Shown in pieces: positions 28,442-61,904 of a stretch of DNA of 64,000 nucleotides. The DNA lies in NCBI GenBank assembly GCA_016931155.1, contig JAFGFJ010000006.1, forward strand, positions 472,652 to 536,651, read 5' to 3'. Below the pieces are notes generated by a model, which saw only the letters and a list, made by a program, of their open reading frames with translations, searched no databases and had not been told where the DNA came from. The position numbers and the translations under genes were made by a program. This stretch comes from Candidatus Dojkabacteria bacterium (GTDB lineage Bacteria; Patescibacteriota; Dojkabacteria; B142; JAFGFJ01). Every line of letters begins with the position of its first letter. Within the stretch, counting starts at the first letter, position 1.

Positions 28442-28530
28442 TGGTGCCGAGGACAGGAGTTGAACCTGCATGGGATTGCTCCCGCTGGTTCCTAAGACCA
28501 GTGCGTCTACCAATTCCGCCACCTCGGCAC
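28442..28530 (-). tRNA. tRNA-Leu (anticodon TAG), type II long variable arm, CCA encoded
   Basis: Hand-folded cloverleaf; GTGGCGGAATTGGTAGACGC D-arm; anticodon loop CTTAGGA. Confidence 0.85.
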
Positions 28531-37929: not shown

Positions 37930-38535
37930 TTATTTTGCAAGTTGACTTTGGATCAGCTTCATTGCTTCGATTACAAATTGCAAATGCTTGTCAAAATCTA
38001 TACCCAGCTCTTCAGCTCCTTTATATATTTCCTCTCTATTCACTTGTGCGGCAAAAGCTTTATCTTTTAATTTCTTTTTTACTGATTTTGGCTCGATATC
38101 TGCTATACCGTTTGGTCTAACGTATGAGACTGCCATGATAAATCCTGTGATTTCGTCACAGGCGTAGAGGGCTTTGTCCATCAGCGTTTTTCTCTCTGTA
38201 AATCTTGGGTTACCATCCTTGTCCAGGTACTGCTCGCTCATATCTCCGTGACCCGCTACGGCTTGTGCTATTTCCTCTTCTCCTTTTTCTCTAAGTAAAG
38301 CAACTATTTTTTTAGGATGCTCATCTGGGAAGCTGTCCCAGTCAGCATCATGTAGCAGTCCGGCAATTCCCCATTTTTCTTCATCTTTACCGAATTTCCT
38401 GGCGTAAGATCTCATACACTCTTCAACAGCAAGCATATGTTTCTTTGAAAAAGGCTTTGTAGACCACGTATCTAAAATTTTTAAAGCCTCATCTCGTGTC
38501 ATGACAGTAATATGATAATAATTATTATTTAACAA
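37930..38535 (-). CDS. HD-domain phosphohydrolase
   Basis: GLLHDADW ... GHGD metal-binding motifs. Confidence 0.7.
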   Translation of the reverse strand: MLNNNYYHITVMTRDEALKILDTWSTKPFSKKHMLAVEECMRSYARKFGKDEEKWGIAGLLHDADWDSFPDEHPKKIVALLREKGEEEIAQAVAGHGDMSEQYLDKDGNPRFTERKTLMDKALYACDEITGFIMAVSYVRPNGIADIEPKSVKKKLKDKAFAAQVNREEIYKGAEELGIDFDKHLQFVIEAMKLIQSQLAK

Positions 38536-38947
38536 ATCCGGTAATTTTATCCAGTACCTTTTTTCCTTCTTCAGATGTCAGTATCTTGTCTGGAGCAGGA
38601 AAACTATTGAGAAGATCATGGAGACCCCCACTGAAATTTGTAGGCAGAGGATAAAGTTTTATATGCATGTGGTCAACATCAAGTCCTTCTATTATTTCTA
38701 GGACTCTTGGTGAATTTAGAGATTTTCTCAGAGTGCTGGAAATAGTTTTTGCTATTAAAATTCCTTTCTTCAAGATTTCATCAGGAACCTCGTCGAAATT
38801 GCTTGAAATATGTTCTTTACTAATCACTAAGACCTGTCCTTCAATGCGGGGAAAGGCGTCAAGAATCACTGCAAAATTTTCATTTTCAATGATTTTGAAA
38901 CTTGGAATCTCGCCCTTTACTATTTTACAGAAAATGCAATCGTCCAT
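38525..38947 (-). CDS. HIT family hydrolase
   Basis: CIFCKI N-terminus; histidine triad DVDHMHIKLYP. Confidence 0.85.
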   Translation of the reverse strand: MDDCIFCKIVKGEIPSFKIIENENFAVILDAFPRIEGQVLVISKEHISSNFDEVPDEILKKGILIAKTISSTLRKSLNSPRVLEIIEGLDVDHMHIKLYPLPTNFSGGLHDLLNSFPAPDKILTSEEGKKVLDKITGFVK

Positions 38948-38958
38948 AATTTACTATC

Positions 38959-39273
38959 TTAATAATTATTTTTTTGTTTTTCATCCCATTCCTTTTTCAA
39001 CTCCTTCAACTTCCACATAAAAATTTTTCCTTTGTTTCTTGCTTTGGGGTAGTCCATAGAAAATGATACTGCTTCTTCGAGCAGTCTTCTATCCTCACTT
39101 TTAGCAAGTTTAATGTATAAAGCCTTGTGTGCCAAGTCGCCCAGCTTTATTGCAAGTCTGTAGCCAAAATCCTGAAACTCCCGGGTGACGTATTTCAGGT
39201 TTTTCTTCTTTTCTTCAAGAAAATCATGGGAGAGTAGAATGTCTTTTGCGGACTTTACTTTTCTTCTTTTCAT
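38959..39273 (-). CDS. hypothetical protein
   Basis: 104-aa basic ORF; no motif recognised. Confidence 0.4.
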   Translation of the reverse strand: MKRRKVKSAKDILLSHDFLEEKKKNLKYVTREFQDFGYRLAIKLGDLAHKALYIKLAKSEDRRLLEEAVSFSMDYPKARNKGKIFMWKLKELKKEWDEKQKNNY

Positions 39274-39285
39274 TTCTTGAGTATA

Positions 39286-40683
39286 TCACTGAGCTGAAAT
39301 GCTTTCGATAGTTTTTTCAATCATACCCCTAAAGCCGTGTGAGCCTGTGAACAGAATAATCCTTTTCCCCTTGATTTTTATCAGATGATCGATAAGTTCA
39401 TTATCAATCGGGAAATAATTTACCTTGTTATGTGTTTTTGAAATAACTTCAGAAAGTTCTTTTCCTCCAAGCCGGAAAAGTCTGTCTCTCGTTTTGGTGG
39501 TTGAAAGTCTAGGAATTATAACTTCTGTTGCATTCTTGAAAACACTATTGTACAGCGGGATAGCCTCTTTCGTTCTGTTTCCTGCATTTGGCTCGAAAAC
39601 TACTACTATTTTGTGTTTTGGATATTCTTCCTTAACTGCACTCAAAGACCCTCTGGCCTTTGAAGGTGTGCTTCCAAAGTCGTCAATCACCATGCAGTCA
39701 TTTATGTTCATCCTGACTTCAAGTCTTCTCTTGATTCCGCTGAAAGTTTCTATTCCATCTTTTATTGCTTCTGCCGGTATGTCAAGATTTCTAGCGAGAG
39801 TAGCAGCTCCGGTTATATTTATTTTATTGTGTTTTCCTATTAGCTTTGTCTTATACGAAAAGTCTTTTTCATTATATTCGTAAAAAATTACTTTTGCTTT
39901 TGCGTTTTCAACTACTTCTTCGATATTTTCTCCTTCTTTACTGGCTACTATTAGGCCATCCTGGGGGACTGACTCGACAAGTTTTTTAAAATTATCAACG
40001 TATGCCTTCTTTGTAGGAAATATATCCGTATGGTCATGCTCTGCAGAAGTAATGACTAAGTACTTCGGGTGGTAATGGAAAAATTTGGATGTTTGGTCGT
40101 AGCATGAAGTTATATATTCATCGCCCTCTGTTATACTCCATTCAGTTGTTTTGTCTTTTAGTTTTATTCCATCTTTTATATTGTTCGCTAATGCCCCAAT
40201 CATATAACTGATTTTCTTGTTTGCTTTATGAAAAATATTTACGAGAAGGGCTGTAATGGTTGTTTTCCCATATGTACCAGTAATAACAATAGAATTTTTG
40301 TCTACAATTTGATGTTTTTCCAGTACTTCAGGGTATGATTTCACGGTGAGTTTTTTCTTTTTGGCAAATAATAGCTCAGGATTTTTTGATGAAATAGAAG
40401 CACCGATTATCACTAAGGTTGGAAAGTCAGGAAGTCCAGACCTTATTCCCTTGCTATATTTTTTTCTGTAATAAGCTCTTGTAAGGTGTTCTTTTCTGAA
40501 TCCTACCTCTACAGTGATAGCTTTTTCTATCAAATAAGTACTCATTGGTGGGTAAAAGGCTTTGTCAGAACCAGTTATGAACCATCCATTTTCCTTAAAT
40601 GCGTTTGCCATTGGAGCCATTGTGACGCCAGAAATGCCTATCAAATGTACCCAATTTACTTTTTCCTTACAGGATCTTTTCAT
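39286..40683 (-). CDS. Mur ligase of the MurC/Mpl family (Mpl-like YPPMST motif)
   Basis: HLIGISGVTMAPMANAF...GSDKAFYPPMST, P-loop TGTYGKTT, SAEHDHTD. Confidence 0.85.
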   Translation of the reverse strand: MKRSCKEKVNWVHLIGISGVTMAPMANAFKENGWFITGSDKAFYPPMSTYLIEKAITVEVGFRKEHLTRAYYRKKYSKGIRSGLPDFPTLVIIGASISSKNPELLFAKKKKLTVKSYPEVLEKHQIVDKNSIVITGTYGKTTITALLVNIFHKANKKISYMIGALANNIKDGIKLKDKTTEWSITEGDEYITSCYDQTSKFFHYHPKYLVITSAEHDHTDIFPTKKAYVDNFKKLVESVPQDGLIVASKEGENIEEVVENAKAKVIFYEYNEKDFSYKTKLIGKHNKINITGAATLARNLDIPAEAIKDGIETFSGIKRRLEVRMNINDCMVIDDFGSTPSKARGSLSAVKEEYPKHKIVVVFEPNAGNRTKEAIPLYNSVFKNATEVIIPRLSTTKTRDRLFRLGGKELSEVISKTHNKVNYFPIDNELIDHLIKIKGKRIILFTGSHGFRGMIEKTIESISAQ

Positions 40684-40836: not shown

Positions 40837-40852
40837 CACACAAAATGTTGTG
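40837..40852 (+). promoter_or_regulatory. candidate NrdR box ACACAAAATGTTGTGC
   Basis: 13 of 16 positions match the consensus acaCwAtATaTwGtgt, in the 364-bp divergent region upstream of nrdR. Confidence 0.35.
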
Positions 40853-41047
40853 CTTGGCAGAGATTAAGTCTGGGGTAGACTTTTGATTTCAAGTAGTAAT
40901 TTAAGTGTATATGTAGGGATTGTTGTTGCACCTTTAGCCGTTGTTGCTACCTCTTTTTAGTCTCCAGAGTTGAAGATAACCCTTTGTTTAGAAGGTTAGT
41001 TGAGATGCCCCAAAAATTGGAGACTGTTTAATTGATTTTGGAAAAAA

Positions 41048-41512
41048 ATGTTTTGTCCATATTGTCATTTTGAAGATACTAAAGTCGTTGATAAAAGAGA
41101 TAATGATGAAACGGCTGTTACCAGAAGAAGAAGGGAATGTTTGGGCTGTGGGAAAAGGTTTACTACTTATGAGCGTATAGAGACTATTCATCTCAATGTA
41201 GTGAAAAGAAGCGGGAAGATGGAAGAGTTTGACCGGGAGAAACTCAAAAGAGGGATAATGAAAGCAGTAAAGAAAAGACCGATAACTGAAAAACAGATAG
41301 ATGAATTGATTGATGATATTGAATTGAAGCTATTAAACAGGAAAAGCACGGAAATAAAGAGTACAGAGATAGGAAAAATGATCCTGACGAGACTTAAAAA
41401 GCTTGATCAGGTGGGTTATATACTTTTTGCGTCAGTGTACAGGGATTTTAATGAGATAAATGACTTTGAAAGAGTGCTTGAGGAATTGAAAATGCCGAAT
41501 GGGAGTGATTAG
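41048..41512 (+). CDS. nrdR: transcriptional repressor NrdR
   Basis: Zn ribbon MFCPYCHFEDTKVVDKR...CLGCGKRFTTYE followed by an ATP-cone. Confidence 0.9.
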   Translation: MFCPYCHFEDTKVVDKRDNDETAVTRRRRECLGCGKRFTTYERIETIHLNVVKRSGKMEEFDREKLKRGIMKAVKKRPITEKQIDELIDDIELKLLNRKSTEIKSTEIGKMILTRLKKLDQVGYILFASVYRDFNEINDFERVLEELKMPNGSD

Positions 41513-41553: not shown

Positions 41554-43350
41554 ATGCCGAAAAACCTTGCCATAAAACCAGAGCTTACTCCAAATGCGCT
41601 CTTCATTGCTGAAAAGAGGTATTTTAAGCTGGGAAAGGACGGGAAACCTGAAGAAAATCCTTCTCAAATGTTTAGACGTGTTTCGAAGTTTATTGCTTCT
41701 GCGGAAAATAAACTCAACGATAAGAAAAAAGGCTACAAGAAACCTGCAGCAAAAAGACTAAAGGAGATAGAGGATTCATTTTATGAGATTCAGTCAAATT
41801 TGGAATTTCTACAAGGAATGACTCTTCTTGATAGAGGAAAAGAAGATCTGGTTGCTGCCTGTTATGTTATGCCAATTAAGGATTCTCTTGAATCGATCTA
41901 TGGTACTCTTGCAAATACTGTTACTTTGCACAGACGGGGAGCGGGAGTAGGTTATGATTTTTCTGAGATCAGACCGGAAGGGACGATTATAAATTCGACC
42001 GGGAAAGAGGCAAGCGGTCCGATTTCATTTATGAGGCTCTATGATTTTTCCTCGGAGGTTATTATGAATCGCGGATCGGTCAGACATGCGGGTCATATGG
42101 GAATTTTGAGAATTGATCACCCTGATATAGAAAAATTTATCACGGCAAAAGAAGATTATACTCAGCTTACAAATTTCAACATTTCCATAGCAATTACGGA
42201 TGAGTTTGTTAAGGCTCTGCGAAAAGGCGGGAAATACAAGCTTGTTCACGATGGGAAGCCTTATGGAGAAGCTAACGCCAGGGAAATGCTTAGAAAAATT
42301 ACAGAAAGTATTCACCGAAGCGGTGAGCCAGGATTTATATTTATTGATGAAGTAAACAGGTTTAATCCTACTCTCAATGTTGGTAAGATGACTGCTACAA
42401 ATCAATGCGGAGAACAGCCGCTTCTGCCGTATGAGGCCTGTAATATAGGATCTATTATTTTGAATAGATTTGTAGTTCCGGAAGGTGATGGTGGTGATAC
42501 AGGAGCAAAGAAGCCGGAGGACAGGATAAATTGGGAACGTCTGGAATATGTAGTAAAAGTTGCTGTCAGATTTTTGGACAACACCATTACAGTTGCAAAT
42601 CACTTACTTCCGGAAATTGAAAAGATTGTTATGTACGGGAATAGAAAGATCGGACTTGGTGTTATGGGCTGGGCTGACCTCCTTTATGAACTAAAACTGC
42701 CATATAACTCAGAAGAAGCTCTGGATTTAGCTGAGGGAGTTATGAAATTTATCGAAAAGACAGGACACGAAGCGTCACAGGAATTGGGTATTGAAAAAGG
42801 CGACTTTGGTAATTTCAAGGGAAGTAGGTGGGATAAGAAAGGCTATAAGCATATGAGAAATGCCACCGTAACTACAATTGCACCAAATGGCACTACGAGT
42901 CTGCTGGCTGAAGTTAGTGGTGGGATTGAACCGGTTTTCGCTCTTGGCTATGTGAGGAAAAACATGGAAACAGTTGGGGAAAATGTGGAAATGCTTTATG
43001 TAAATTCTGGACTGGAAAGAGCACTCAAAGATAAGTGGCTTTATTCGAAAGATTTGATGGCCAAAATTGCGGGGAAGGGAACTCTGGAAGGTTTTACTGA
43101 AATCCCTGATGAGCTTAAAAAGGTGTTTGTAACTTCTTACGATATAAGTTCAGAGTGGCATTTGAGGATGCAGGCCGCATTCCAAAAATACACAGATAAT
43201 GCCGTTTCGAAAACTATTAACCTGCCGGAAAGCGCAAAAATAGAGGATATCGAAAAAGCTTTTATTCTTGCGACCGAACTTCACCTGAAGGGTCTAACTA
43301 TATACAGGGACAAAAGCAGGGACAAGCAAGTACTAAATTTGAATAAATGA
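41554..43350 (+). CDS. nrdJ: class II (adenosylcobalamin-dependent) ribonucleotide reductase catalytic core, short form without C-terminal redox tail
   Basis: AACYVMP (C225 equivalent), [17 protein letters not shown] (thiyl Cys, Glu, C462 equivalent), TIAPNGTTS finger loop; 598 aa. Confidence 0.9.
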   Translation: MPKNLAIKPELTPNALFIAEKRYFKLGKDGKPEENPSQMFRRVSKFIASAENKLNDKKKGYKKPAAKRLKEIEDSFYEIQSNLEFLQGMTLLDRGKEDLVAACYVMPIKDSLESIYGTLANTVTLHRRGAGVGYDFSEIRPEGTIINSTGKEASGPISFMRLYDFSSEVIMNRGSVRHAGHMGILRIDHPDIEKFITAKEDYTQLTNFNISIAITDEFVKALRKGGKYKLVHDGKPYGEANAREMLRKITESIHRSGEPGFIFIDEVNRFNPTLNVGKMTATNQCGEQPLLPYEACNIGSIILNRFVVPEGDGGDTGAKKPEDRINWERLEYVVKVAVRFLDNTITVANHLLPEIEKIVMYGNRKIGLGVMGWADLLYELKLPYNSEEALDLAEGVMKFIEKTGHEASQELGIEKGDFGNFKGSRWDKKGYKHMRNATVTTIAPNGTTSLLAEVSGGIEPVFALGYVRKNMETVGENVEMLYVNSGLERALKDKWLYSKDLMAKIAGKGTLEGFTEIPDELKKVFVTSYDISSEWHLRMQAAFQKYTDNAVSKTINLPESAKIEDIEKAFILATELHLKGLTIYRDKSRDKQVLNLNK

Positions 43351-43508
43351 ATAAATTTGAAAAAAGAACAATAATTATAGATTCGAGAGGGAATAAGGCA
43401 AATCTTTATGCTTCCGCTTACAGCGAGCAAGAAGCGAATAGAGCCATGGGTATGCTCGTCGATGAGATGTTTATTGATATGAGTATTGAAAATGGAAACA
43501 AAAGATAA
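43347..43508 (+). CDS. 53-aa ORF translationally coupled (ATGA overlap) to the first nrdJ stop
   Basis: MNKFEKRTIIIDSRGNKANLYASAYSEQEANRAMGMLVDEMFIDMSIENGNKR; below the 60-aa track cutoff, found by manual translation. Confidence 0.3.
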   Translation: MNKFEKRTIIIDSRGNKANLYASAYSEQEANRAMGMLVDEMFIDMSIENGNKR

Positions 43509-43568: not shown

Positions 43569-46500
43569 ATGAGAAAAGGAGGAAAAACATCTTCAGTAGA
43601 TGATAAACTCCCCGCAGTTTACACTGAAGGCTCGGTTCAGCTTCTGAGAAAAAGATTTCTTAAGACCGATGATGAAGGTATACCAATAGAAACCCCTGGA
43701 GATATGTTTGCTAGAGTTGCTGAAGGTGTTGCAAAAGGGGATCTGGTCTTTAATAAGGGCAAGAAGGAAGCCAAGAAAACAGAGGCAGAGTTTTTTGACA
43801 TGATTTACAATCTTCGCTTCATACCCAATTCTCCAACTCTTCTGAATGTCGGGAGAAACAACAAAAACTTTGCGGCCTGTTTTGTACTGCCTATAGCGGA
43901 TTCTCTCTCTGAAATTTATTCGACTCTAAATGAAGCAGTTAATGTTCAGTGGAAAGGCGGGGGAACGGGTTTTAATTTTTCGCCAATAAGACCGAAAGGC
44001 GACATGGCAGGAGGGATTCCAGATGTTGCGGCAGGACCTATTCACTACATAAAGACCTTCTCGACAGCGATGATGGGTGTGAGGCAGTCCGGTAAAAGGG
44101 GAGGCGGAAATATGGCAATACTCAATGTGGATCATCCGGATATTTTGGAGTTTATACATCTCAAAGAGCAGGACAGAACGATAATGAATTTCAATATTTC
44201 TGTTGGAATTACCAATATATTTATGAAAGCTCTTCAGGAGGATACTACATATGATCTGGTAAATCCTCGAAATAATGAGGTTGCCGGGCAGTTGAGTGCA
44301 CGACAGGTATTTGACGAAATTGTTCAGCTTGCTCACAAGACAGGTGATCCCGGTCTTGCTTTCATAGATAATATTGAAGCTGACAACAAAACTCCACTTG
44401 TAGGGAAGATGGATGCTACAAACCCTTGCGGCGAACAGCCTCTTCTTCCTTATGAGTCGTGTAATCTTGGGGCAGTAAACCTCAGGGTAATGTTTGATCA
44501 GAAGAAGAACATACTTAACTGGGATCTTCTTAAAAAAACAATTCATACAGGTGTTCATTTTCTGGATAATATTGTTGAAATAAACAATTATCCGCTGGAA
44601 AAAATAGAGAAAGTTACAAAGCATACAAACAGAAAGATTGGTTTGGGACTAATGGGATTTGCTGACCTGCTTATGATGATGGAGATTCCCTATAACTCTG
44701 AAAAAGCCTATAAATTTGCTGAAAAATTGATAAAATTTATTGAAGATGAAGCAATTAAGGAGTCGATCAGGCTTGCGAAAAAGCGTGGAGTTTTTCCAGC
44801 ATACAGTGGAAGTGTATGGGAGAAAAGGAAGCTCCCTGTAAGAAATGCTACTCTCACAACAATTGCTCCAAACGGTAACACAAGTCTTATTGGGGGGTCT
44901 GTTGGGGGTATTGAGCCATCATATGCTCTTGCATACAAAGTAGGAGGTGTTGAGGATAGAAGCTACAGAGCTACAGAGGTTATATTCAACGTATCGGAAG
45001 GGTTCAAGCATCTTGCTAAAAAACACGGATTTTACAAACCTGAGGTAATTGAAAAAATAGTTAATGGAGTGCCTGTTTCTGCTATTAAAGAAATTCCGGA
45101 AGGTGTTAAAAAAGTGCTTGTAACGGCTCTTGATATCTCACCGATGGATCACTTAAAAATGCAGGCAGCTTTTCAGAAGAATGTTGATAATGCAATTTCC
45201 AAGACAATAAATTTTCCGAATGATTCAACTCCGATGGATATAAAGAAAGTCTACATTGAAGCGTACAGGCTTGGTCTTAAGGGTGTAACAATTTATCGGG
45301 ATGGGAGCAAAAGCGGGCAGACACTCGTTTCGAGCGACAACAAAGGAAAATTGAATGTGGAAGGGACAGGTGGAGAAAAATCCGGCAACGAATCAGATGG
45401 GATGAAAATGGAACCTGCTCCTATTCTTACGTCAAATGCACTTCAGGTTCTTGAGAAAAGAGCTTTAAAGAAAAGCGAAAATGGAGAAATAATTGAAACT
45501 CCCGAGGAGCTTTGGAGAAGAATCGCAAAACATGTTGCGAAAGCTGAGAAGAAGGATAAGCAAAAAGAATGGGAAGGGAATTTTTTTACGGTTTTTAATT
45601 CTGCTGAATTTTTAAGCGGGGGTGCGCTGATTTATGCTGGTCTCGGGGAACGTGCGATTCTTTCGAAATGTCTTGTTCTACCTGTTGACGACTCGATAGG
45701 TAGTATTTTCGAGAGTCTTAATATGAATATTGAAATGCTTAAACGAGGTGTTGGTACAGGGTTTAATTTTTCAAAGATCAGGTCATCTTATGCTGTTGTG
45801 AAAACGACTGGAGAGCATGCAGCAGGACCTATTAAATATCTGAAACTCTATGATAGTGCACAAGACACTCTTACCGGTCGTGGTGGTAGAGGGCTTGGCT
45901 CGATGGCGATACTTAATGTGGATCACCCCAATATTGAGGAGTTTGTAAATTTGAAGGACGATCTAAGTGCGATCCATCATTACAATATTTCTGTTGGTGT
46001 GAGCGACAAATTTATGAAAGCGGTTAAAAGTAATGCAAAGTGGGATCTGGTAGATCCACATGATGGGAATGTTTATAAAACGATTAAGGCAAAGGAGCTT
46101 TTTAATTCGATAGCAAAGCATGCGTGGTTGAGTGGTGATCCTGGAATCTTTTTCCTGGATACAGCTGAAAAGGGGAATACAACTCCTGCTCTTGGAAAGA
46201 TGGATGCTACAAATCCTTGCGGTGAGCAACCCCTTATCCCCTATGAAACCTGTAATCTCGGCAATATTGATATTTCAAAAATGATAAAGGGAAATCCATA
46301 TGCACTGGATCCAGACCTTTTGGATGCTCCTTTCAAGGAGAAGATGAGATTTGTGAATTGGGAAAGACTGGCAGAGGTTACACGTATTGGAGTGAGATAC
46401 CTTGACGATATTATTGATGTAAACACTTATCCTATAAAGGAGATTGAGGTGATGACTAAAAAGACTAGAAATGTAGGGTTGGGAATAATGGGGCTTGCTG

Positions 46501-47933
46501 ACTTCTTCATAAAACTTGGTATCCCATACGAAAGTGATGAAGCAGTAAAGGCATCAGAAGAGGTAATGAAATTTATTCAAAGTGAGGCACATAAATATTC
46601 TGAAGCTTTGGGGAAAGAGAAGGGAAATTTCCCGGCTTTTAAAGATAGCACATGGAGGAAGAAAGGAAAGAAATACATGAGAAATACAAGGACAACGACT
46701 ATTGCTCCAACAGGTACAATTGCAATTGTTGCAAACTGTAATCCGGGGATTGAGCCTGTATTTGCTCTTGGATATCGAAGAAAGAACTCGATGGGGGGGA
46801 CGGATCAGTTGGTGATTGAACCTTTGTTTATTGAGGTTGCAATGCAAAGAGGTTTTTACTCAGATGAACTTATTAATGATATAGCAGACGGAAAACACTT
46901 AAGTGAAATTAAAGAAAAATATAATATTCCTGATGATGTGGTTAAGGTTTTTGTCACGACTCATGAAATAGATCCAAAGCGGCATGTACATATCCAATCG
47001 GCTTTCCAGAAATACGTTGATAGTGCTGTTTCAAAAACTATCAATTTGCCAAACTCTGCAACTCCTGAGGACATAGAAAGGGTTTATGCACTTGCATATG
47101 ATCTCGGCTGTAAGGGAATTACTGTATTTAGAGATGGAAGTAAAGATCCGGCTCTCCAGGTGGGGGTTGGTGTAAGAGATAATTCAGCTTCTGACTTTCC
47201 AGCAGATAGGCAAAGTGGCGAACAGTCTGGTAAACAGGATGGCACAAGAGAGACCTTTGAGCCAAGGGATCGCGCAATGGTAACAAGAGGTACTACTACT
47301 AAACTCAAGACAGAACAGGGAAGCCTTTTCGTGACTATAAATGAGGATGAAAAAGGAATTGTGGAGGTGTTTCTGGTGCTTGGAAAGAGCGGAAGCTTTA
47401 CTACAGGTTATACAGAGGCTATTGGAAGACTTGTCTCTATGTCTCTGAGAAGTGGTATAAAGGTGGAGAATATAATTGAACAGTTAAAAGGAATAAGAAC
47501 TTCCATGCCTACAATGAACAAAGGTATGATAATTTACTCTGTACCTGATGCTGTTGCCAAAGTGCTTGAGCAGTATGTTGAGAATAAGAAAGGGCAGGTG
47601 GAAATGTTTGAAGCTCAGCCTGCATCTGTAGCTGATGTAAAAGATGCGCCGGAATCCAGCTCTGTAAAATCTGTCCCTGAATCTCCCGAGACGGAAACAG
47701 AAGAGGAGGAGAAGTCAGAAGATGAGGAGAAAAATGAACGACCCGCTAAAGAAATCACACCGAAGCTTGACGCAAAAATCAGTGACAAGGAATCAAACCA
47801 TGTTGACGGTAAGTTCTATAGCAAAAATAATGTAATGGGTGATTTACTGGAGTGTCCGGAATGTGGTGGAGATCTGGAATATGCAGAAGGGTGTATTCTA
47901 TGTAGAAGTTGTGGGTATAGTAAATGCGGATAA
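43569..47933 (+). CDS. nrdJ: giant class II ribonucleotide reductase: two complete NrdJ catalytic cores fused in tandem, plus one C-terminal tail domain and a terminal CxxC...CxxC zinc ribbon
   Basis: Core A (~43569-45350): [33 protein letters not shown]. Core B (~45402-47150): [33 protein letters not shown]. Then [24 protein letters not shown] tail and ECPECGG...[13 protein letters not shown]. Cores are ~45-50% identical to each other and to the upstream nrdJ. Confidence 0.9.
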
Positions 47934-48759: not shown

Positions 48760-48802
48760 TTTCGGTATTCTTTCGGTATAATATTTCGGTTAAGTTTCAG
48801 TA
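48760..48802 (+). promoter_or_regulatory. Three to four phased TTTCGGTA-type repeats overlapping a TATAAT box and the start codon of the lexA-operon first gene
   Basis: tttcggtattc tttcggtataatat ttcggttaagtttcagtATG read directly. Confidence 0.35.
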
Positions 48803-49266
48803 TGGATTTAGTTGCACTTCAAAAATTTCTTTACGAATCTACTTCGGAAATATATGCGAACCCTGAGGTTAGAATAATTGAGGAAAAGGATGGCTCGCAT
48901 ACGATAGTGTGTATAAATGGAAGCTTCACTCTTCATGACAATTATTTCGGAGGAGAGCCTTTCGGAGGTAGAGAAGTAATTTTTGAAAATAATAAGCCTG
49001 TATGGATGATGGTCTATTATGGTTCGGTTACGAATCGTTTTAAAAAGCTTGGGTCAGTTTACTCATTTCTGAAAGAAGCTCTTCGGAACAATACTAAGAA
49101 TATGCCATATAGGGGACCTAAGAAATACAAAAAAGATGAGTGGCTTTATAAAAACGAACTTAAGGGAGATATGAAGTCTTTCATCGGAGAAGAGAAAATA
49201 TTTTATAAGGATAAGATGGTTTATTCTGCAAATTATCAAGGAGGTCTGATAAATAATAATGAATAA
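48802..49266 (+). CDS. hypothetical protein, first gene of a probable two-gene operon with lexA
   Basis: 154-aa ORF ending 16 bp before lexA. Confidence 0.5.
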   Translation: MDLVALQKFLYESTSEIYANPEVRIIEEKDGSHTIVCINGSFTLHDNYFGGEPFGGREVIFENNKPVWMMVYYGSVTNRFKKLGSVYSFLKEALRNNTKNMPYRGPKKYKKDEWLYKNELKGDMKSFIGEEKIFYKDKMVYSANYQGGLINNNE

Positions 49267-49282
49267 TTTTTAATCAATTTAT

Positions 49283-49909
49283 ATGACATACGATTTAGCT
49301 AGACCGACTATTCAACAGAAAAATATTCTTGATTTTATAGAATCATACATAGCTAAAAATGGAGTATCTCCAACTCTTCTTGAAGTGAAAGATCATATCG
49401 GTGTTAACTCTCTAGGCACTGTATACGAGCATCTGGATAAACTTGAATCAAAAGGGCTCATACAAAGAGATAAAAATGCTCCACGTGGTATAAGGTATCT
49501 GATAAATGTCGGAATATGTATTGGAGAAATGATACAAATCCCAATGGTCGGGACAATTCAAGCGGGATACCCTATAGATTTTGACTTTGATTCATCAGAG
49601 ACTATTGAACTACCCGTGAATTTTATTAAGGGAAAAGATGTTTTTGCTCTTGAAGTAAAGGGTGACAGCATGGTAGATGCTTATGTGACGGAGGGTGATA
49701 TTGTGATCTGTGAAAAAACAAATAGTGTAAGAGACGGTGACATGGTGGCGGCAATGGTTGATCACAGGGAAGCTACCTTAAAGAGGTTTTTTAAAAAGAA
49801 AGGAAGAATAGTTTTAAAACCGGAAAATCCCAAATACAAAGATATTGTCAGGAAAACAGGAGAAATAGAAGTGCAGGGCAAAGTACTTACAATTATTAGA
49901 AATCTTTAG
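49283..49909 (+). CDS. lexA: LexA repressor (S24 peptidase)
   Basis: N-terminal winged HTH; A-G cleavage site (IQAG), catalytic Ser in GDSM and Lys in ATLKRF. Confidence 0.9.
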   Translation: MTYDLARPTIQQKNILDFIESYIAKNGVSPTLLEVKDHIGVNSLGTVYEHLDKLESKGLIQRDKNAPRGIRYLINVGICIGEMIQIPMVGTIQAGYPIDFDFDSSETIELPVNFIKGKDVFALEVKGDSMVDAYVTEGDIVICEKTNSVRDGDMVAAMVDHREATLKRFFKKKGRIVLKPENPKYKDIVRKTGEIEVQGKVLTIIRNL

Positions 49910-51076: not shown

Positions 51077-51152
51077 TGGAGCGAACGACCGGAGTCGAAC
51101 CGGCGACCTTCTCGTTGGCAACGAGACGTTCTACCAACTGAACTACGTTCGC
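51077..51152 (-). tRNA. tRNA-Gly (anticodon GCC), CCA encoded
   Basis: Hand-folded cloverleaf; anticodon loop TTGCCAA. Confidence 0.85.
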
Positions 51153-53652: not shown

Positions 53653-53726
53653 TGCCGAGGTAGCTCAGTTGGTAGAGCACGCGACTGAAAATCGCGGTGT
53701 CGCCAGTTCAATTCTGGCCCTCGGCA
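53653..53726 (+). tRNA. tRNA-Phe (anticodon GAA), CCA not encoded
   Basis: Hand-folded cloverleaf; anticodon loop CTGAAAA. Confidence 0.85.
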
Positions 53727-53886: not shown

Positions 53887-53963
53887 GGGCACCTAGCTCA
53901 ACTGGTTAGAGCAATTCGTTTACACCGAATAGGTTGGGGGTTCGAGTCCCTTGGTGCCCACCA
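53887..53963 (+). tRNA. tRNA-Val (anticodon TAC), CCA encoded
   Basis: Hand-folded cloverleaf; anticodon loop TTTACAC. Confidence 0.85.
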
Positions 53964-61721: not shown

Positions 61722-61796
61722 GCCACTCTAGCTCAGTTGGTAGAGCATCGGTATCGTAAACCGAGGGTCGCGAGTTCGATTCTCGCGGGTGGCTCC
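61722..61796 (+). tRNA. tRNA-Thr (anticodon CGT), CCA encoded
   Basis: Hand-folded cloverleaf; anticodon loop ATCGTAA. Confidence 0.85.
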
Positions 61797-61829: not shown

Positions 61830-61904
61830 TGGAGCGGCGAACCGGGCTCGAACCGGCGACCTCTTCCTTGGGAAGGAAGCATTCTACCACTGAACTACCG
61901 CCGC
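61830..61904 (-). tRNA. tRNA-Gly (anticodon CCC), CCA encoded
   Basis: Hand-folded cloverleaf; anticodon loop TTCCCAA. Confidence 0.85.

What the first reader, a model, noticed from the sequence alone, without database searches (positions are those of the whole stretch)
43569..47933. Two complete class II RNR catalytic cores fused head-to-tail in one 1454-aa polypeptide
The protein contains two full NrdJ cores, each with the full catalytic set. Core A has [24 protein letters not shown] and TIAPNGNTS; core B has [24 protein letters not shown] and TIAPTGTIA. The cores are joined by a short Gly/Ser linker. Only one C-terminal tail follows ([19 protein letters not shown]...), ending in a zinc ribbon (CPECGG...[13 protein letters not shown]). 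Class II RNRs normally act as homodimers, or as a monomer carrying a dimer-mimicking insert, so a covalent pseudo-dimer of two diverged cores is an unusual architecture to my knowledge. No intein blocks are present; the extra length is a second RNR, not an intein. The cores are only ~45-50% identical, so an assembly collapse or duplication artefact is unlikely.
Basis: partly seen in the sequence, partly recalled or inferred. Interest (0 to 1): 0.85.

Follow-up and report, generated by a model that had tools for sequence, protein, structure and literature searches.

The report
Three-core B12 ribonucleotide reductase operon
A tiny-genome Patescibacteria (Dojkabacteria) bacterium makes its DNA building blocks with three diverged copies of the B12-dependent ribonucleotide reductase core, two of them fused into one 1454-residue protein that carries the only thiol "recharging" tail; relatives share this layout, but I found no paper describing it.

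Summary
ORF 43569..47933 is one uninterrupted 1454-aa protein with two complete NrdJ cores, an IscU-like/TSCPD domain and a six-Cys zinc finger, and no intein. Two corrections apply: the cores are 41.6% identical, not 45-50%, and a third complete, tail-less NrdJ core lies just upstream (41554..43350), after nrdR.

The architecture is not unique. At least 119 protein clusters, all with named members from Patescibacteria, have the same fusion, and 9 of 9 loci inspected carry the extra single core directly upstream. Nine full-text searches and two RNR-wide phylogeny papers found no description of tandem catalytic cores.

All three cores keep every catalytic and effector-anchoring residue at 99-100%. 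Each has its own conserved loop 2, and only core A keeps the pyrimidine-selecting Gln.

The "covalent pseudo-dimer" is unproven. AlphaFold2 folds both cores well (pLDDT 88-90) but does not place them confidently (pTM 0.56-0.59). Covariation between the A and B interface regions is only suggestive.

Best reading: a three-active-site class II RNR system sharing one redox tail, probably with divided substrate specificity. It is a new variant of a known kind; interest 0.6.

The parts
40838..40853 (.). NrdR-box-like palindrome ACACAAAATGTTGTGC, about 195 nt upstream of nrdR (candidate operator)
   Evidence: the only match in the 64-kb window to ACACNANNTNTNGTGT with at most 1 mismatch (0.64 matches expected by chance). 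No second box at the canonical spacing was recognised. Tentative.
41048..41512 (+). nrdR, the RNR transcriptional repressor (154 aa)
   Evidence: Zn_ribbon_NrdR (5e-18) plus ATP-cone (2e-21). It sits in the same position in L001, L002, L004, L087 and L088.
41554..43350 (+). 'core0': stand-alone, tail-less NrdJ catalytic core (598 aa). Its only cysteines are C103, C285 and C296, the three catalytic ones
   Evidence: TIGR02504 581 bits against a cut-off of 400; at least 113 orthologous clusters of about 590 aa.
43347..43508 (+). 53-aa ORF of unknown function between core0 and the fused gene
   Evidence: a homologous 58-aa ORF lies directly upstream of the fused gene in L001. No Pfam hit. Whether it belongs to the system is uncertain.
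43569..45314 (+). Core A of the fused protein (residues 1-582). Catalytic C104, N285, C287, E289, C298; canonical-type loop 2 with Q173 and R177
   Evidence: (TIGR02504 610 bits).
45315..45419 (+). Disordered A-B linker (residues 583-617), with no Cys and no stop codon
   Evidence: (pLDDT below 50). Linker length varies across the family by about 57 residues, and 17 relatives carry a Ham1/ITPase domain here.
45420..47153 (+). Core B of the fused protein (residues 618-1195). Catalytic C701, N882, C884, E886, C895; Gln-less loop 2 (T769 G770 ... R774)
   Evidence: (TIGR02504 592 bits).
47310..47576 (+). IscU-like / TSCPD domain (residues 1248-1336), without cysteines in this protein
   Evidence: (PF12637, 4.5e-23). 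The domain is described for class II C-termini in PMC9669993.
47577..47849 (+). Acidic low-complexity spacer of 91 aa (17 Glu, 12 Lys, 10 Ser), read as the flexible arm of the tail
47850..47933 (+). C-terminal zinc finger with six Cys ([27 protein letters not shown]) plus the stop codon. These are the only non-core cysteines in the three-core system
   Evidence: All six Cys are at least 90% conserved across 117 homologues. PMC9669993 describes four Zn ligands plus a Cys pair.

Best explanation
The locus is a Patescibacteria-type class II (adenosylcobalamin) ribonucleotide reductase operon. Its order is nrdR, then a single tail-less NrdJ core (core0), then a fused protein of core A, linker, core B, an IscU-like domain, an acidic arm and a Zn finger.

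Shown: all three cores are dimer-type NrdJ barrels with complete catalytic and effector-anchoring residue sets. The three-core layout is conserved across many lineages. Only one Cys-bearing tail exists.

Inferred:
(a) All three cores are active reductases.
(b) Each lacks a dimer-mimicking insert but keeps the specificity-site anchors, so each must pair with another core. The most economical pairing is A with B (within one chain or between two chains) and core0 with itself.
(c) The single Zn-finger Cys pair, on its roughly 90-residue flexible arm, re-reduces several active sites. This includes those of core A and core0, which have no tail of their own.
(d) The three paralogue-specific loop 2 sequences divide the substrate and effector repertoire. 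Core A keeps the Gln that selects pyrimidines, while B and core0 do not. The usual 'one re-programmable site for four substrates' would then be partly replaced by specialised sites.
For: Architecture and domains.

Fold: the model's best PDB match is dimeric T. maritima NrdJ (1xje_A, E 2.8e-42, TM 0.81 normalised to the target).

Catalytic and allosteric residues: roles are taken from Table 4 of PMC4728125. C134, D141, R171, R207, N320, C322, E324 and C333 are 99-100% conserved in each of 119 A cores, 119 B cores and 113 core0 sequences.

Dimer type: spacing from the loop-1 Arg to the Gly-Pro motif is 15 residues in all three cores, as in T. maritima. The RTPR model TIGR02505 fails (45-66 bits against a cut-off of 340).

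Loop 2: each paralogue has its own conserved version. A is Q99-G93-x-K100-R100-x-G-G-N. B is (G/T)-(R/K)-G-G-R-x-x-G-S. Core0 is N-R-G-A-V-R-H-A-G-H. The Gln stabilises pyrimidine substrates and the Arg binds the substrate phosphate (PMC4728125; PMC3267527).

Conservation of the system: 119 of 120 top clusters are double-core. 9 of 9 loci have the single core directly upstream. 43 fused clusters share the exact longest-contig length with a core0 cluster.

Ancient paralogues: A, B and core0 are 42-45% identical to each other, the same as each is to other phyla's NrdJ.

One tail: core A and core0 each have only the three catalytic Cys, and the sole extra Cys are the six in the Zn finger.

A-B contact: the interface regions of A and B hold 19 of the top 0.1% covarying pairs, against 7.1 +/- 5.8 in random blocks. 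This is the highest count among the homologous blocks, and the top pair is helix alphaB to helix alphaB.

B12 link: a CobA/BtuR adenosyltransferase lies immediately downstream in L005/L006 (the same locus on two contigs), L087, L088 and L089.
Against: AlphaFold2 does not dock A on B with confidence (pTM 0.56 and 0.59 despite pLDDT 88-90).

The covariation enrichment is marginal: 5.3% of random blocks reach it. MI on 117 related sequences is confounded by phylogeny; for example, column A679 behaves as a hub.

Loop-2 Gln is not universal even among canonical RNRs. It is 86% conserved in my 43 single-core representatives, and PMC4728125 warns that it is unlikely to be strictly conserved. Its loss therefore does not prove a changed specificity.

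No biochemical data exist for any member.

In L087 and L088 the upstream core keeps an IscU-like domain, so tail sharing may differ between lineages.

Cobalamin binding itself was not tested.
Confidence: 0.5

Rival explanations
1. Homotypic pairing with a scaffold role for the fusion. A pairs with A', B with B' and core0 with core0', giving closed (A-B)2 assemblies or chains. The fusion only co-localises two different homodimeric enzymes and lets them share a tail.
For: AlphaFold2 gives no confident intramolecular A-B interface. A 200-aa Ham1 domain is tolerated in the linker in 17 relatives, so the tether is loose. IscU-like domains have been proposed to drive higher-order oligomers in class II RNRs (PMC9669993).
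Against: Covariation between the A and B interface regions is the highest of all homologous blocks. A strict 1:1 fusion kept across at least 119 clusters is the typical signature of an obligate heteromer.
Confidence: 0.2
2. Independent isozymes. Core0 and the fused protein do not cooperate physically. They are alternative RNRs used under different conditions, such as different cobamides, redox states or growth phases.
For: Many bacteria keep several RNRs (background knowledge). Core0 is a separate gene, is more conserved than the fused protein (65-77% against 53-61% identity within Dojkabacteria), and is separated from it by up to 1.4 kb containing other genes in some loci.
Against: Core0 has no tail cysteines at all, so it needs an external reductant shuttle. 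It is always adjacent to and on the same strand as the fused gene, behind one nrdR (9 of 9 loci). Genomes of about 0.56-1 Mb rarely keep redundant 1.8-kb genes.
Confidence: 0.17
3. Pseudo-enzyme model. One or two of the cores are catalytically dead regulatory or structural partners. This would resemble the inactive Rnr4 partner of yeast Rnr2, or the inner inactive copies of tandem ATP-cones.
For: B and core0 lack the loop-2 Gln and the Ser91 phosphate ligand. Domain duplicates in RNRs are known to decay: inner ATP-cones lose their ligand-binding residues.
Against: The thiyl Cys, the redox Cys pair, Asn, Glu and the loop-2 Arg are 100% conserved in every core over more than 110 clusters each. 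Each core alone scores above the NrdJ equivalog cut-off.
Confidence: 0.07
4. Artefact: a missed stop or frameshift, a collapsed assembly, or an intein-bearing single NrdJ.
For: None found.
Against: The reading frame is uninterrupted. The nucleotide sequences of the cores are essentially dissimilar. 119 independent clusters share the architecture. There is no intein domain, whereas genuine intein-split NrdJs give sequential, not duplicated, HMM coordinates.
Confidence: 0.01

Closest known systems
Dimeric class II RNR NrdJ of Thermotoga maritima (PDB 1XJE, 3O0O)
   Same: Same fold (TM 0.81-0.83 normalised to the target, 35% identity). Same catalytic Cys/Asn/Cys/Glu/Cys set and the same effector anchors D141, K158-like and R171. 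Short loop 1 with no dimer-mimic insert.
   Different: T. maritima has one gene and one kind of core forming a symmetric homodimer. Here there are three cores that are 41-45% identical, two of them covalently linked, with three different loop 2 sequences and one tail for three active sites.
Split class II RNR NrdJa/NrdJb (Pseudomonas aeruginosa type; described in PMC9669993)
   Same: A catalytic chain with no C-terminal cysteines depends on another polypeptide that carries the IscU-like and Zn-finger modules. Core0 is in this situation.
   Different: In the split enzyme NrdJb is only the tail. Here the tail-bearing partner contains two further complete catalytic cores, and core0 lacks the extra C-terminal docking domain reported for NrdJa.
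Monomeric class II RNR (Lactobacillus leichmannii RTPR)
   Same: It also solves the problem of completing the specificity site within a single polypeptide.
   Different: RTPR does this with an inserted two-helix block that mimics the partner (PMC3267527), not with a second catalytic core. The RTPR model TIGR02505 is far below its cut-off here.
Tandem ATP-cones in class I RNRs (PMC9669993 and its bioRxiv version)
   Same: Duplication of a domain within an RNR catalytic subunit.
   Different: Those duplications concern the 90-aa regulatory cone, and the inner copies decay. Here the whole 580-aa catalytic barrel is duplicated and both copies stay intact.
Paralogous heterodimeric RNR subunits in yeast (Rnr2-Rnr4; Rnr1/Rnr3). 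From my own knowledge, not checked here
   Same: Diverged paralogues of an RNR subunit working together.
   Different: Rnr4 is an inactive radical-subunit paralogue. No obligate heteromer of catalytic subunits, and no fusion, is known to me.

Membership tests
Class II (AdoCbl-dependent) ribonucleotide reductase, NrdJ | RNR ten-stranded alpha/beta barrel with an N-terminal all-alpha domain | tested here: met
   Pfam PF00317 plus PF02867 appear twice in the fused protein and once in core0. Foldseek finds 1xje_A with E 2.8e-42 and TMt 0.81.
Class II (AdoCbl-dependent) ribonucleotide reductase, NrdJ | Finger-loop thiyl Cys with Asn and Glu, plus the redox-active Cys pair | tested here: met
   N-x-C-x-E and both pair cysteines are 100% conserved in cores A, B and core0 (119, 119 and 113 sequences).
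Class II (AdoCbl-dependent) ribonucleotide reductase, NrdJ | Sequence membership in the NrdJ equivalog model (TIGR02504), scoring above the class I models | tested here: met
   Core A 610, core B 592 and core0 581 bits against a cut-off of 400. NrdA/NrdE TIGR02506 scores 274-298, below its cut-off of 341.
Class II (AdoCbl-dependent) ribonucleotide reductase, NrdJ | Adenosylcobalamin is the radical generator | not testable with these tools
   Context only: a CobA/BtuR adenosyltransferase lies directly downstream in L005/L006 (the same locus on two contigs), L087, L088 and L089. No cobalamin-contact residues were mapped.
Dimeric NrdJ subclass | No dimer-mimicking insertion in loop 1; specificity-site anchors present | tested here: met
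   Arg-to-GlyPro spacing is 15 residues in all three cores, as in T. maritima. D141 and R171 are 99-100% conserved.
Dimeric NrdJ subclass | Symmetric homodimer of identical chains | tested here: inconclusive
   AF2 pTM is 0.56 and 0.59 for the A-B segment. Covariation is weakly enriched at the A/B interface block.
Dimeric NrdJ subclass | Each catalytic chain carries its own C-terminal redox cysteines | tested here: not met
   Core0 ends at ...YRDKSRDKQVLNLNK with no Cys. Core A runs into a Cys-free linker. Only one tail with six Cys exists.
Class II C-terminal IscU-like plus zinc-finger module (PMC9669993) | IscU-like/TSCPD fold followed by a terminal finger with four Zn-ligand Cys and a Cys pair | tested here: met
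   PF12637 at 4.5e-23. The finger reads C-x2-C-x9-C-x2-C-x2-C-x4-C, and all six Cys are at least 90% conserved. The IscU-type Cys ligands are absent in this protein, as in most members.
Split NrdJa/NrdJb | Tail modules on a separate small NrdJb chain; NrdJa has an extra C-terminal docking domain | tested here: not met
   The tail is fused to core B. Core0 stops right after the barrel.
Intein-interrupted NrdJ | Hint/intein domain splitting one core, with sequential HMM coordinates | tested here: not met
   There is no intein domain. The two stretches each cover the full core model, unlike the true intein-bearing representatives.
Monomeric class II RTPR | Match to the RTPR equivalog TIGR02505 | tested here: not met
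   45-66 bits for each single core (core A 44.8, core B 53.4, core0 65.7), against a cut-off of 340.

The most novel reading that the evidence does not exclude
Patescibacteria have partly replaced the universal RNR logic, in which one kind of active site is re-programmed by dNTP effectors to reduce all four substrates. In its place they use a hetero-oligomeric enzyme with three non-equivalent catalytic cores: one free, and two fused into an asymmetric pseudo-dimer with two different specificity sites. Each core would be tuned by its own loop 2 to a subset of substrates, and all would be recharged by a single swinging Zn-finger thiol arm.
Probability: 0.25. Interest if true: 0.85.

Novelty: new variant of a known kind. 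Interest (0 to 1): 0.6.

Why it matters
Textbook RNR has one catalytic subunit type that forms a symmetric dimer. Its single kind of active site handles all four ribonucleotides under allosteric control, which is how cells balance their dNTP pools.

Here, organisms with some of the smallest bacterial genomes spend about 1.1% of a 560-kb contig on three diverged, fully equipped catalytic cores. They keep two of them fused, with only one redox tail. If the cores really differ in substrate preference or form an asymmetric heterodimer, this would be a natural experiment in how specificity regulation and active-site re-reduction can be split between subunits.

It would also explain a share of the "tail-less, cysteine-free" class II sequences left unexplained in a family-wide survey (PMC9669993).

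On the practical side, current annotation labels all three simply [quoted passage not shown]. Phylogenies built from whole proteins would mishandle the double-core sequences.

Tried and rejected
1. Artefact or intein explanations were rejected.
2. The genome-contig scan with the two-core alignment returned only single-core NrdJs of many phyla, because one core matches both halves.
3. The listing of cluster members on 10 divergent double-core proteins returned no organism names.
4. A representative search at 50% clustering showed only P0015 and P0241, plus three truncated fragments, as true double cores among the top 150. The 'stretches' column could not be used as a count of fusions, because most other multi-stretch hits are intein-split single cores.
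5. A neighbour-joining tree with 200 bootstraps supports the B clade at 100% and the core0 clade at 74%. A+B monophyly reaches only 42% and A is not monophyletic. The origin of the fusion therefore stays unresolved, and I do not claim a tandem duplication.
6. The strict NrdR-box consensus gave no hit. A relaxed pattern gave one palindrome.
7. An Rfam gathering scan found only tRNAs and no riboswitch before the operon.
8. There is no obvious Shine-Dalgarno sequence before the internal Met612 or Met614, but the real starts have none either, so an internal start can be neither supported nor excluded.
The lighter version gave only a marginal signal.
10. Nine literature searches found no description of tandem RNR catalytic cores. 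The library lacks most subscription-journal papers, so absence is not proof.
Full report
**1. Observation**

The ORF at 43569..47933 (+) is continuous. It has 1454 codons and one terminal stop. Pfam finds the RNR all-alpha and barrel domains twice, then a TSCPD domain at residues 1248-1336, and no intein.

Cut apart, residues 1-600 and 616-1195 each pass NCBI's NrdJ equivalog model TIGR02504 (610 and 592 bits against a cut-off of 400). Both fail the monomeric RTPR model.

The two cores are 41.6% identical over 586 aa and have almost no nucleotide similarity. A collapsed or duplicated assembly is therefore excluded.

The linker is about 35 residues with AlphaFold2 pLDDT below 50 (residues 583-617). 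It contains no Cys.

**2.

A third complete NrdJ core, here called core0, lies immediately upstream at 41554..43350 (598 aa). It is 41% identical to both A and B, passes TIGR02504 (581 bits), and stops right after the barrel with no tail. Upstream of it is nrdR (41048..41512).

The exact proteins are in NCBI under Candidatus Dojkabacteria (WS6, Patescibacteria), on a 559,650-bp contig.

**3. How common it is**

Of the 120 best clusters (90% identity) found with the fused protein, 119 have two N-x-C-x-E finger loops, lengths of about 1320-1670 aa, and the TSCPD tail. The named ones are Dojkabacteria/WS6, Kerfeldbacteria, Parcubacteria and "Patescibacteria group".

Seventeen of them carry a Ham1/ITPase domain of about 200 aa inserted in the A-B linker.

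Core0 has at least 113 orthologous clusters of about 590 aa, all without a tail.

In all nine loci inspected (the window, L001-L005, L087-L089), a single core sits directly upstream of the fused gene on the same strand. The gaps range from -1 to 1448 nt, and nrdR usually lies in front. 43 fused clusters share their exact longest-contig length with a core0 cluster.

In two divergent lineages (L087, L088) the upstream core still carries an IscU-like domain but no Zn finger. A CobA/BtuR adenosyltransferase directly follows the fused gene in L005/L006 (the same locus on two contigs), L087, L088 and L089.

At 50% clustering, only P0015 and P0241 plus three truncated fragments among the top 150 representatives are double-core. 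Most of the other multi-stretch hits are intein-split single cores with sequential HMM coordinates. The family is therefore well populated but phylogenetically confined.

**4. Relationship of the three cores**

Mean identities over 564 trimmed columns are A-B 0.45, A-core0 0.42 and B-core0 0.43. Each is 0.43-0.45 identical to single-core NrdJs of other phyla.

In a neighbour-joining tree, B is a clade (100% bootstrap) and core0 is a clade (74%). A+B together reach only 42%, and A is not monophyletic.

These are old paralogues. I do not claim a simple tandem duplication.

**5. Functional residues**

Residue roles come from Table 4 of Zimanyi et al. 2016 (PMC4728125), in T. maritima numbering:
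- Asn320 and Glu324 bind the substrate ribose.
- Ser91 and Arg207 bind the substrate phosphates.
- Asp141 binds the effector ribose.
- Arg171 and Lys158 bind the effector phosphates.

Across 119 A, 119 B and 113 core0 sequences, C134, D141, R171, R207, N320, C322, E324 and C333 are 99-100% conserved in every group. The spacing between the loop-1 Arg and the following Gly-Pro is 15 residues in all three, as in the dimeric T. maritima enzyme. None of them therefore has the dimer-mimicking insert of monomeric RTPR (PMC3267527).

The best structural match of the model is T. maritima NrdJ.

All three thus look like active, dimer-type, allosterically addressable cores.

**6. Where they differ**

Loop 2 is the element that reads the effector and selects the substrate base. 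It has a distinct, tightly conserved sequence in each paralogue:

| Core | Loop 2 pattern |
|---|---|
| A | Q99-G93-x-K100-R100-x-G100-G-N100 (canonical type) |
| B | (G/T)-(R/K)-G100-G100-R100-x-x-G100-S |
| core0 | N99-R84-G95-A/S-V-R100-H95-A99-G100-H95 |

The loop-2 Arg that holds the substrate beta-phosphate is invariant in all three. [quoted passage not shown] Its mutation in yeast is reported to raise purine over pyrimidine dNTPs (PMC4728125). K202 and Q203 play these roles in T. maritima (PMC3267527).

B and core0 also replace Ser91, with Gly and Met respectively.

This is the basis for the division-of-labour idea. It is an inference. The same paper cautions that the Gln is unlikely to be universal, and it is 86% conserved in my 43 canonical representatives.

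**7. The tail**

Core A has three cysteines and core0 has three, all catalytic. Core B has those three plus two more. The only other cysteines in the whole system are the six in the terminal finger, C-x2-C-x9-C-x2-C-x2-C-x4-C. All six are at least 90% conserved.

Burnim et al. (PMC9669993) describe exactly this module in class II RNRs: an IscU-like domain plus a finger with four Zn ligands and a Cys pair, proposed to position the pair for active-site reduction. They also note that 26% of finger-less class II C-termini have no cysteine, and only about 40% of those are explained by the split NrdJa/NrdJb enzymes. Core0-type proteins plausibly account for part of the remainder.

A 91-residue acidic spacer precedes the finger. 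This fits a long swinging arm that could reach several active sites.

**8. Does A pair with B?**

Two AlphaFold2 runs on residues 15-1195, with 74 and 117 homologues, give mean pLDDT 88.0 and 90.5 but pTM of only 0.56 and 0.59. Both barrels are confidently folded, but their mutual placement is not. Coordinates and PAE were not available to me.

I also computed APC-corrected mutual information between A and B columns (117 sequences, Neff 78). It places 19 of the top 0.1% pairs in the block formed by helix alphaA, loop 1, helix alphaB and loop 2 of both cores. Random blocks average 7.1 +/- 5.8, and 5.3% of them reach 19. This block has the highest count among all homologous diagonal blocks, although it is the less variable region. 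The top pair, A-M169 with B-L760, lies in the two alphaB helices.

This is suggestive at best, because phylogenetic confounding is evident. The pseudo-dimer remains the most economical model: an obligate 1:1 fusion usually marks a heteromer, and core0 is left to self-pair. It is not demonstrated, and homotypic pairing or core0-containing heteromers are live alternatives.

**9. Comparison with known systems**

The system works like a dimeric class II RNR, and each core is a member of NrdJ by fold, catalytic residues and equivalog score. It departs from the family norm in three ways:
- There are three non-identical catalytic cores.
- Two of the cores are covalently fused.
- There is one redox tail for three active sites.

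It resembles split NrdJa/NrdJb only in having a tail-less catalytic chain. It resembles RTPR only in putting a "partner" in the same chain. The tandem ATP-cones are the only RNR domain duplications I found described.

Nine full-text searches and targeted reading of the two RNR-wide phylogeny papers found no mention of tandem catalytic cores. Most subscription-journal papers are outside the library.

**10. Verdict**

The feature is real, conserved, already abundant in sequence databases under a generic name, and apparently undescribed. It is a new variant of a known kind.

The larger finding is the three-core operon.

Interest is 0.6. It would be higher if biochemistry shows asymmetric specificity sites or substrate partitioning.

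Noticed in passing
window 43347..43508 (+); L001 7809-7985: A 53-aa ORF (MNKFEKRTIIIDSRGNKANLYASAYSEQEANRAMGMLVDEMF...) lies between core0 and the fused gene. It has a recognisable 58-aa homologue directly upstream of the fused gene in the closest relative's locus. It has no Pfam family and is absent from the more distant loci.
   Followed up: partly
window 40838..40853: A palindrome, ACACAAAATGTTGTGC, resembles an NrdR box and lies about 195 nt upstream of nrdR. It is the only such site in the window, and no clear second box sits at the usual 31-32 bp spacing.
   Followed up: partly
P0003-P0010, P0012-P0018, P0036, P0056; locus L003 8001-12815: Variants of about 1600 aa carry a Ham1/ITPase (PF01725) domain inserted in the linker between core A and core B. 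This fuses a nucleotide-pool sanitising enzyme into the reductase.
   Followed up: partly
L087 4839-7001; L088 4814-6970: In two divergent lineages the upstream single core is 718-720 aa and retains an IscU-like/TSCPD domain with cysteines but no Zn finger. Loss of the tail from core0 therefore looks secondary.
   Followed up: partly
L005 12408-12944; L006 8906-9442; L087 11135-11668; L088 11888-12421; L089 11669-12241: A CobA/BtuR cob(I)alamin adenosyltransferase gene directly follows the fused RNR gene. Two NDK genes lie a few genes further on in L087 and L088. NUDIX, dCTP deaminase/dUTPase, HIT and HD genes recur around the operon, so this looks like a dNTP supply and sanitation neighbourhood.
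   Followed up: no
P0245 (758 aa) and P0389 (765 aa): P0245 is a B-type core with an IscU-like tail but no A core and no Zn finger, and has an odd N-terminus; it may be a split or mis-called variant. P0389 is a single A-like core with about 118 extra N-terminal residues and a short Zn-finger tail. They may be unfused relatives useful for dating the fusion.
   Followed up: no
window 37930..40683 (-) compared with L001 and L002: The gene order HD-domain protein, HIT protein, small unknown ORF, Mur ligase (all on the minus strand) upstream of nrdR is conserved between the window and other Dojkabacteria loci.
   Followed up: no
window 48802..49266 (+) and 49283..49909 (+): A DUF5680 protein is followed directly by LexA (LexA_DNA_bind plus Peptidase_S24) just downstream of the RNR operon. 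Six tRNA genes lie elsewhere in the window: 28445-28528, 51080-51152, 53654-53726, 53887-53960, 61722-61794 and 61833-61904.
   Followed up: no
core A of the window protein compared with the family (residues 84-96 and 285-296): The window's core A belongs to a minority A subtype ([22 protein letters not shown]). It is shared with the Ham1-bearing relatives and groups nearer to B in the NJ tree. Most Dojkabacteria have FLPGSRVL.EAG and NPCGEEPLRA. Core A may therefore not be orthologous across the whole family.
   Followed up: partly
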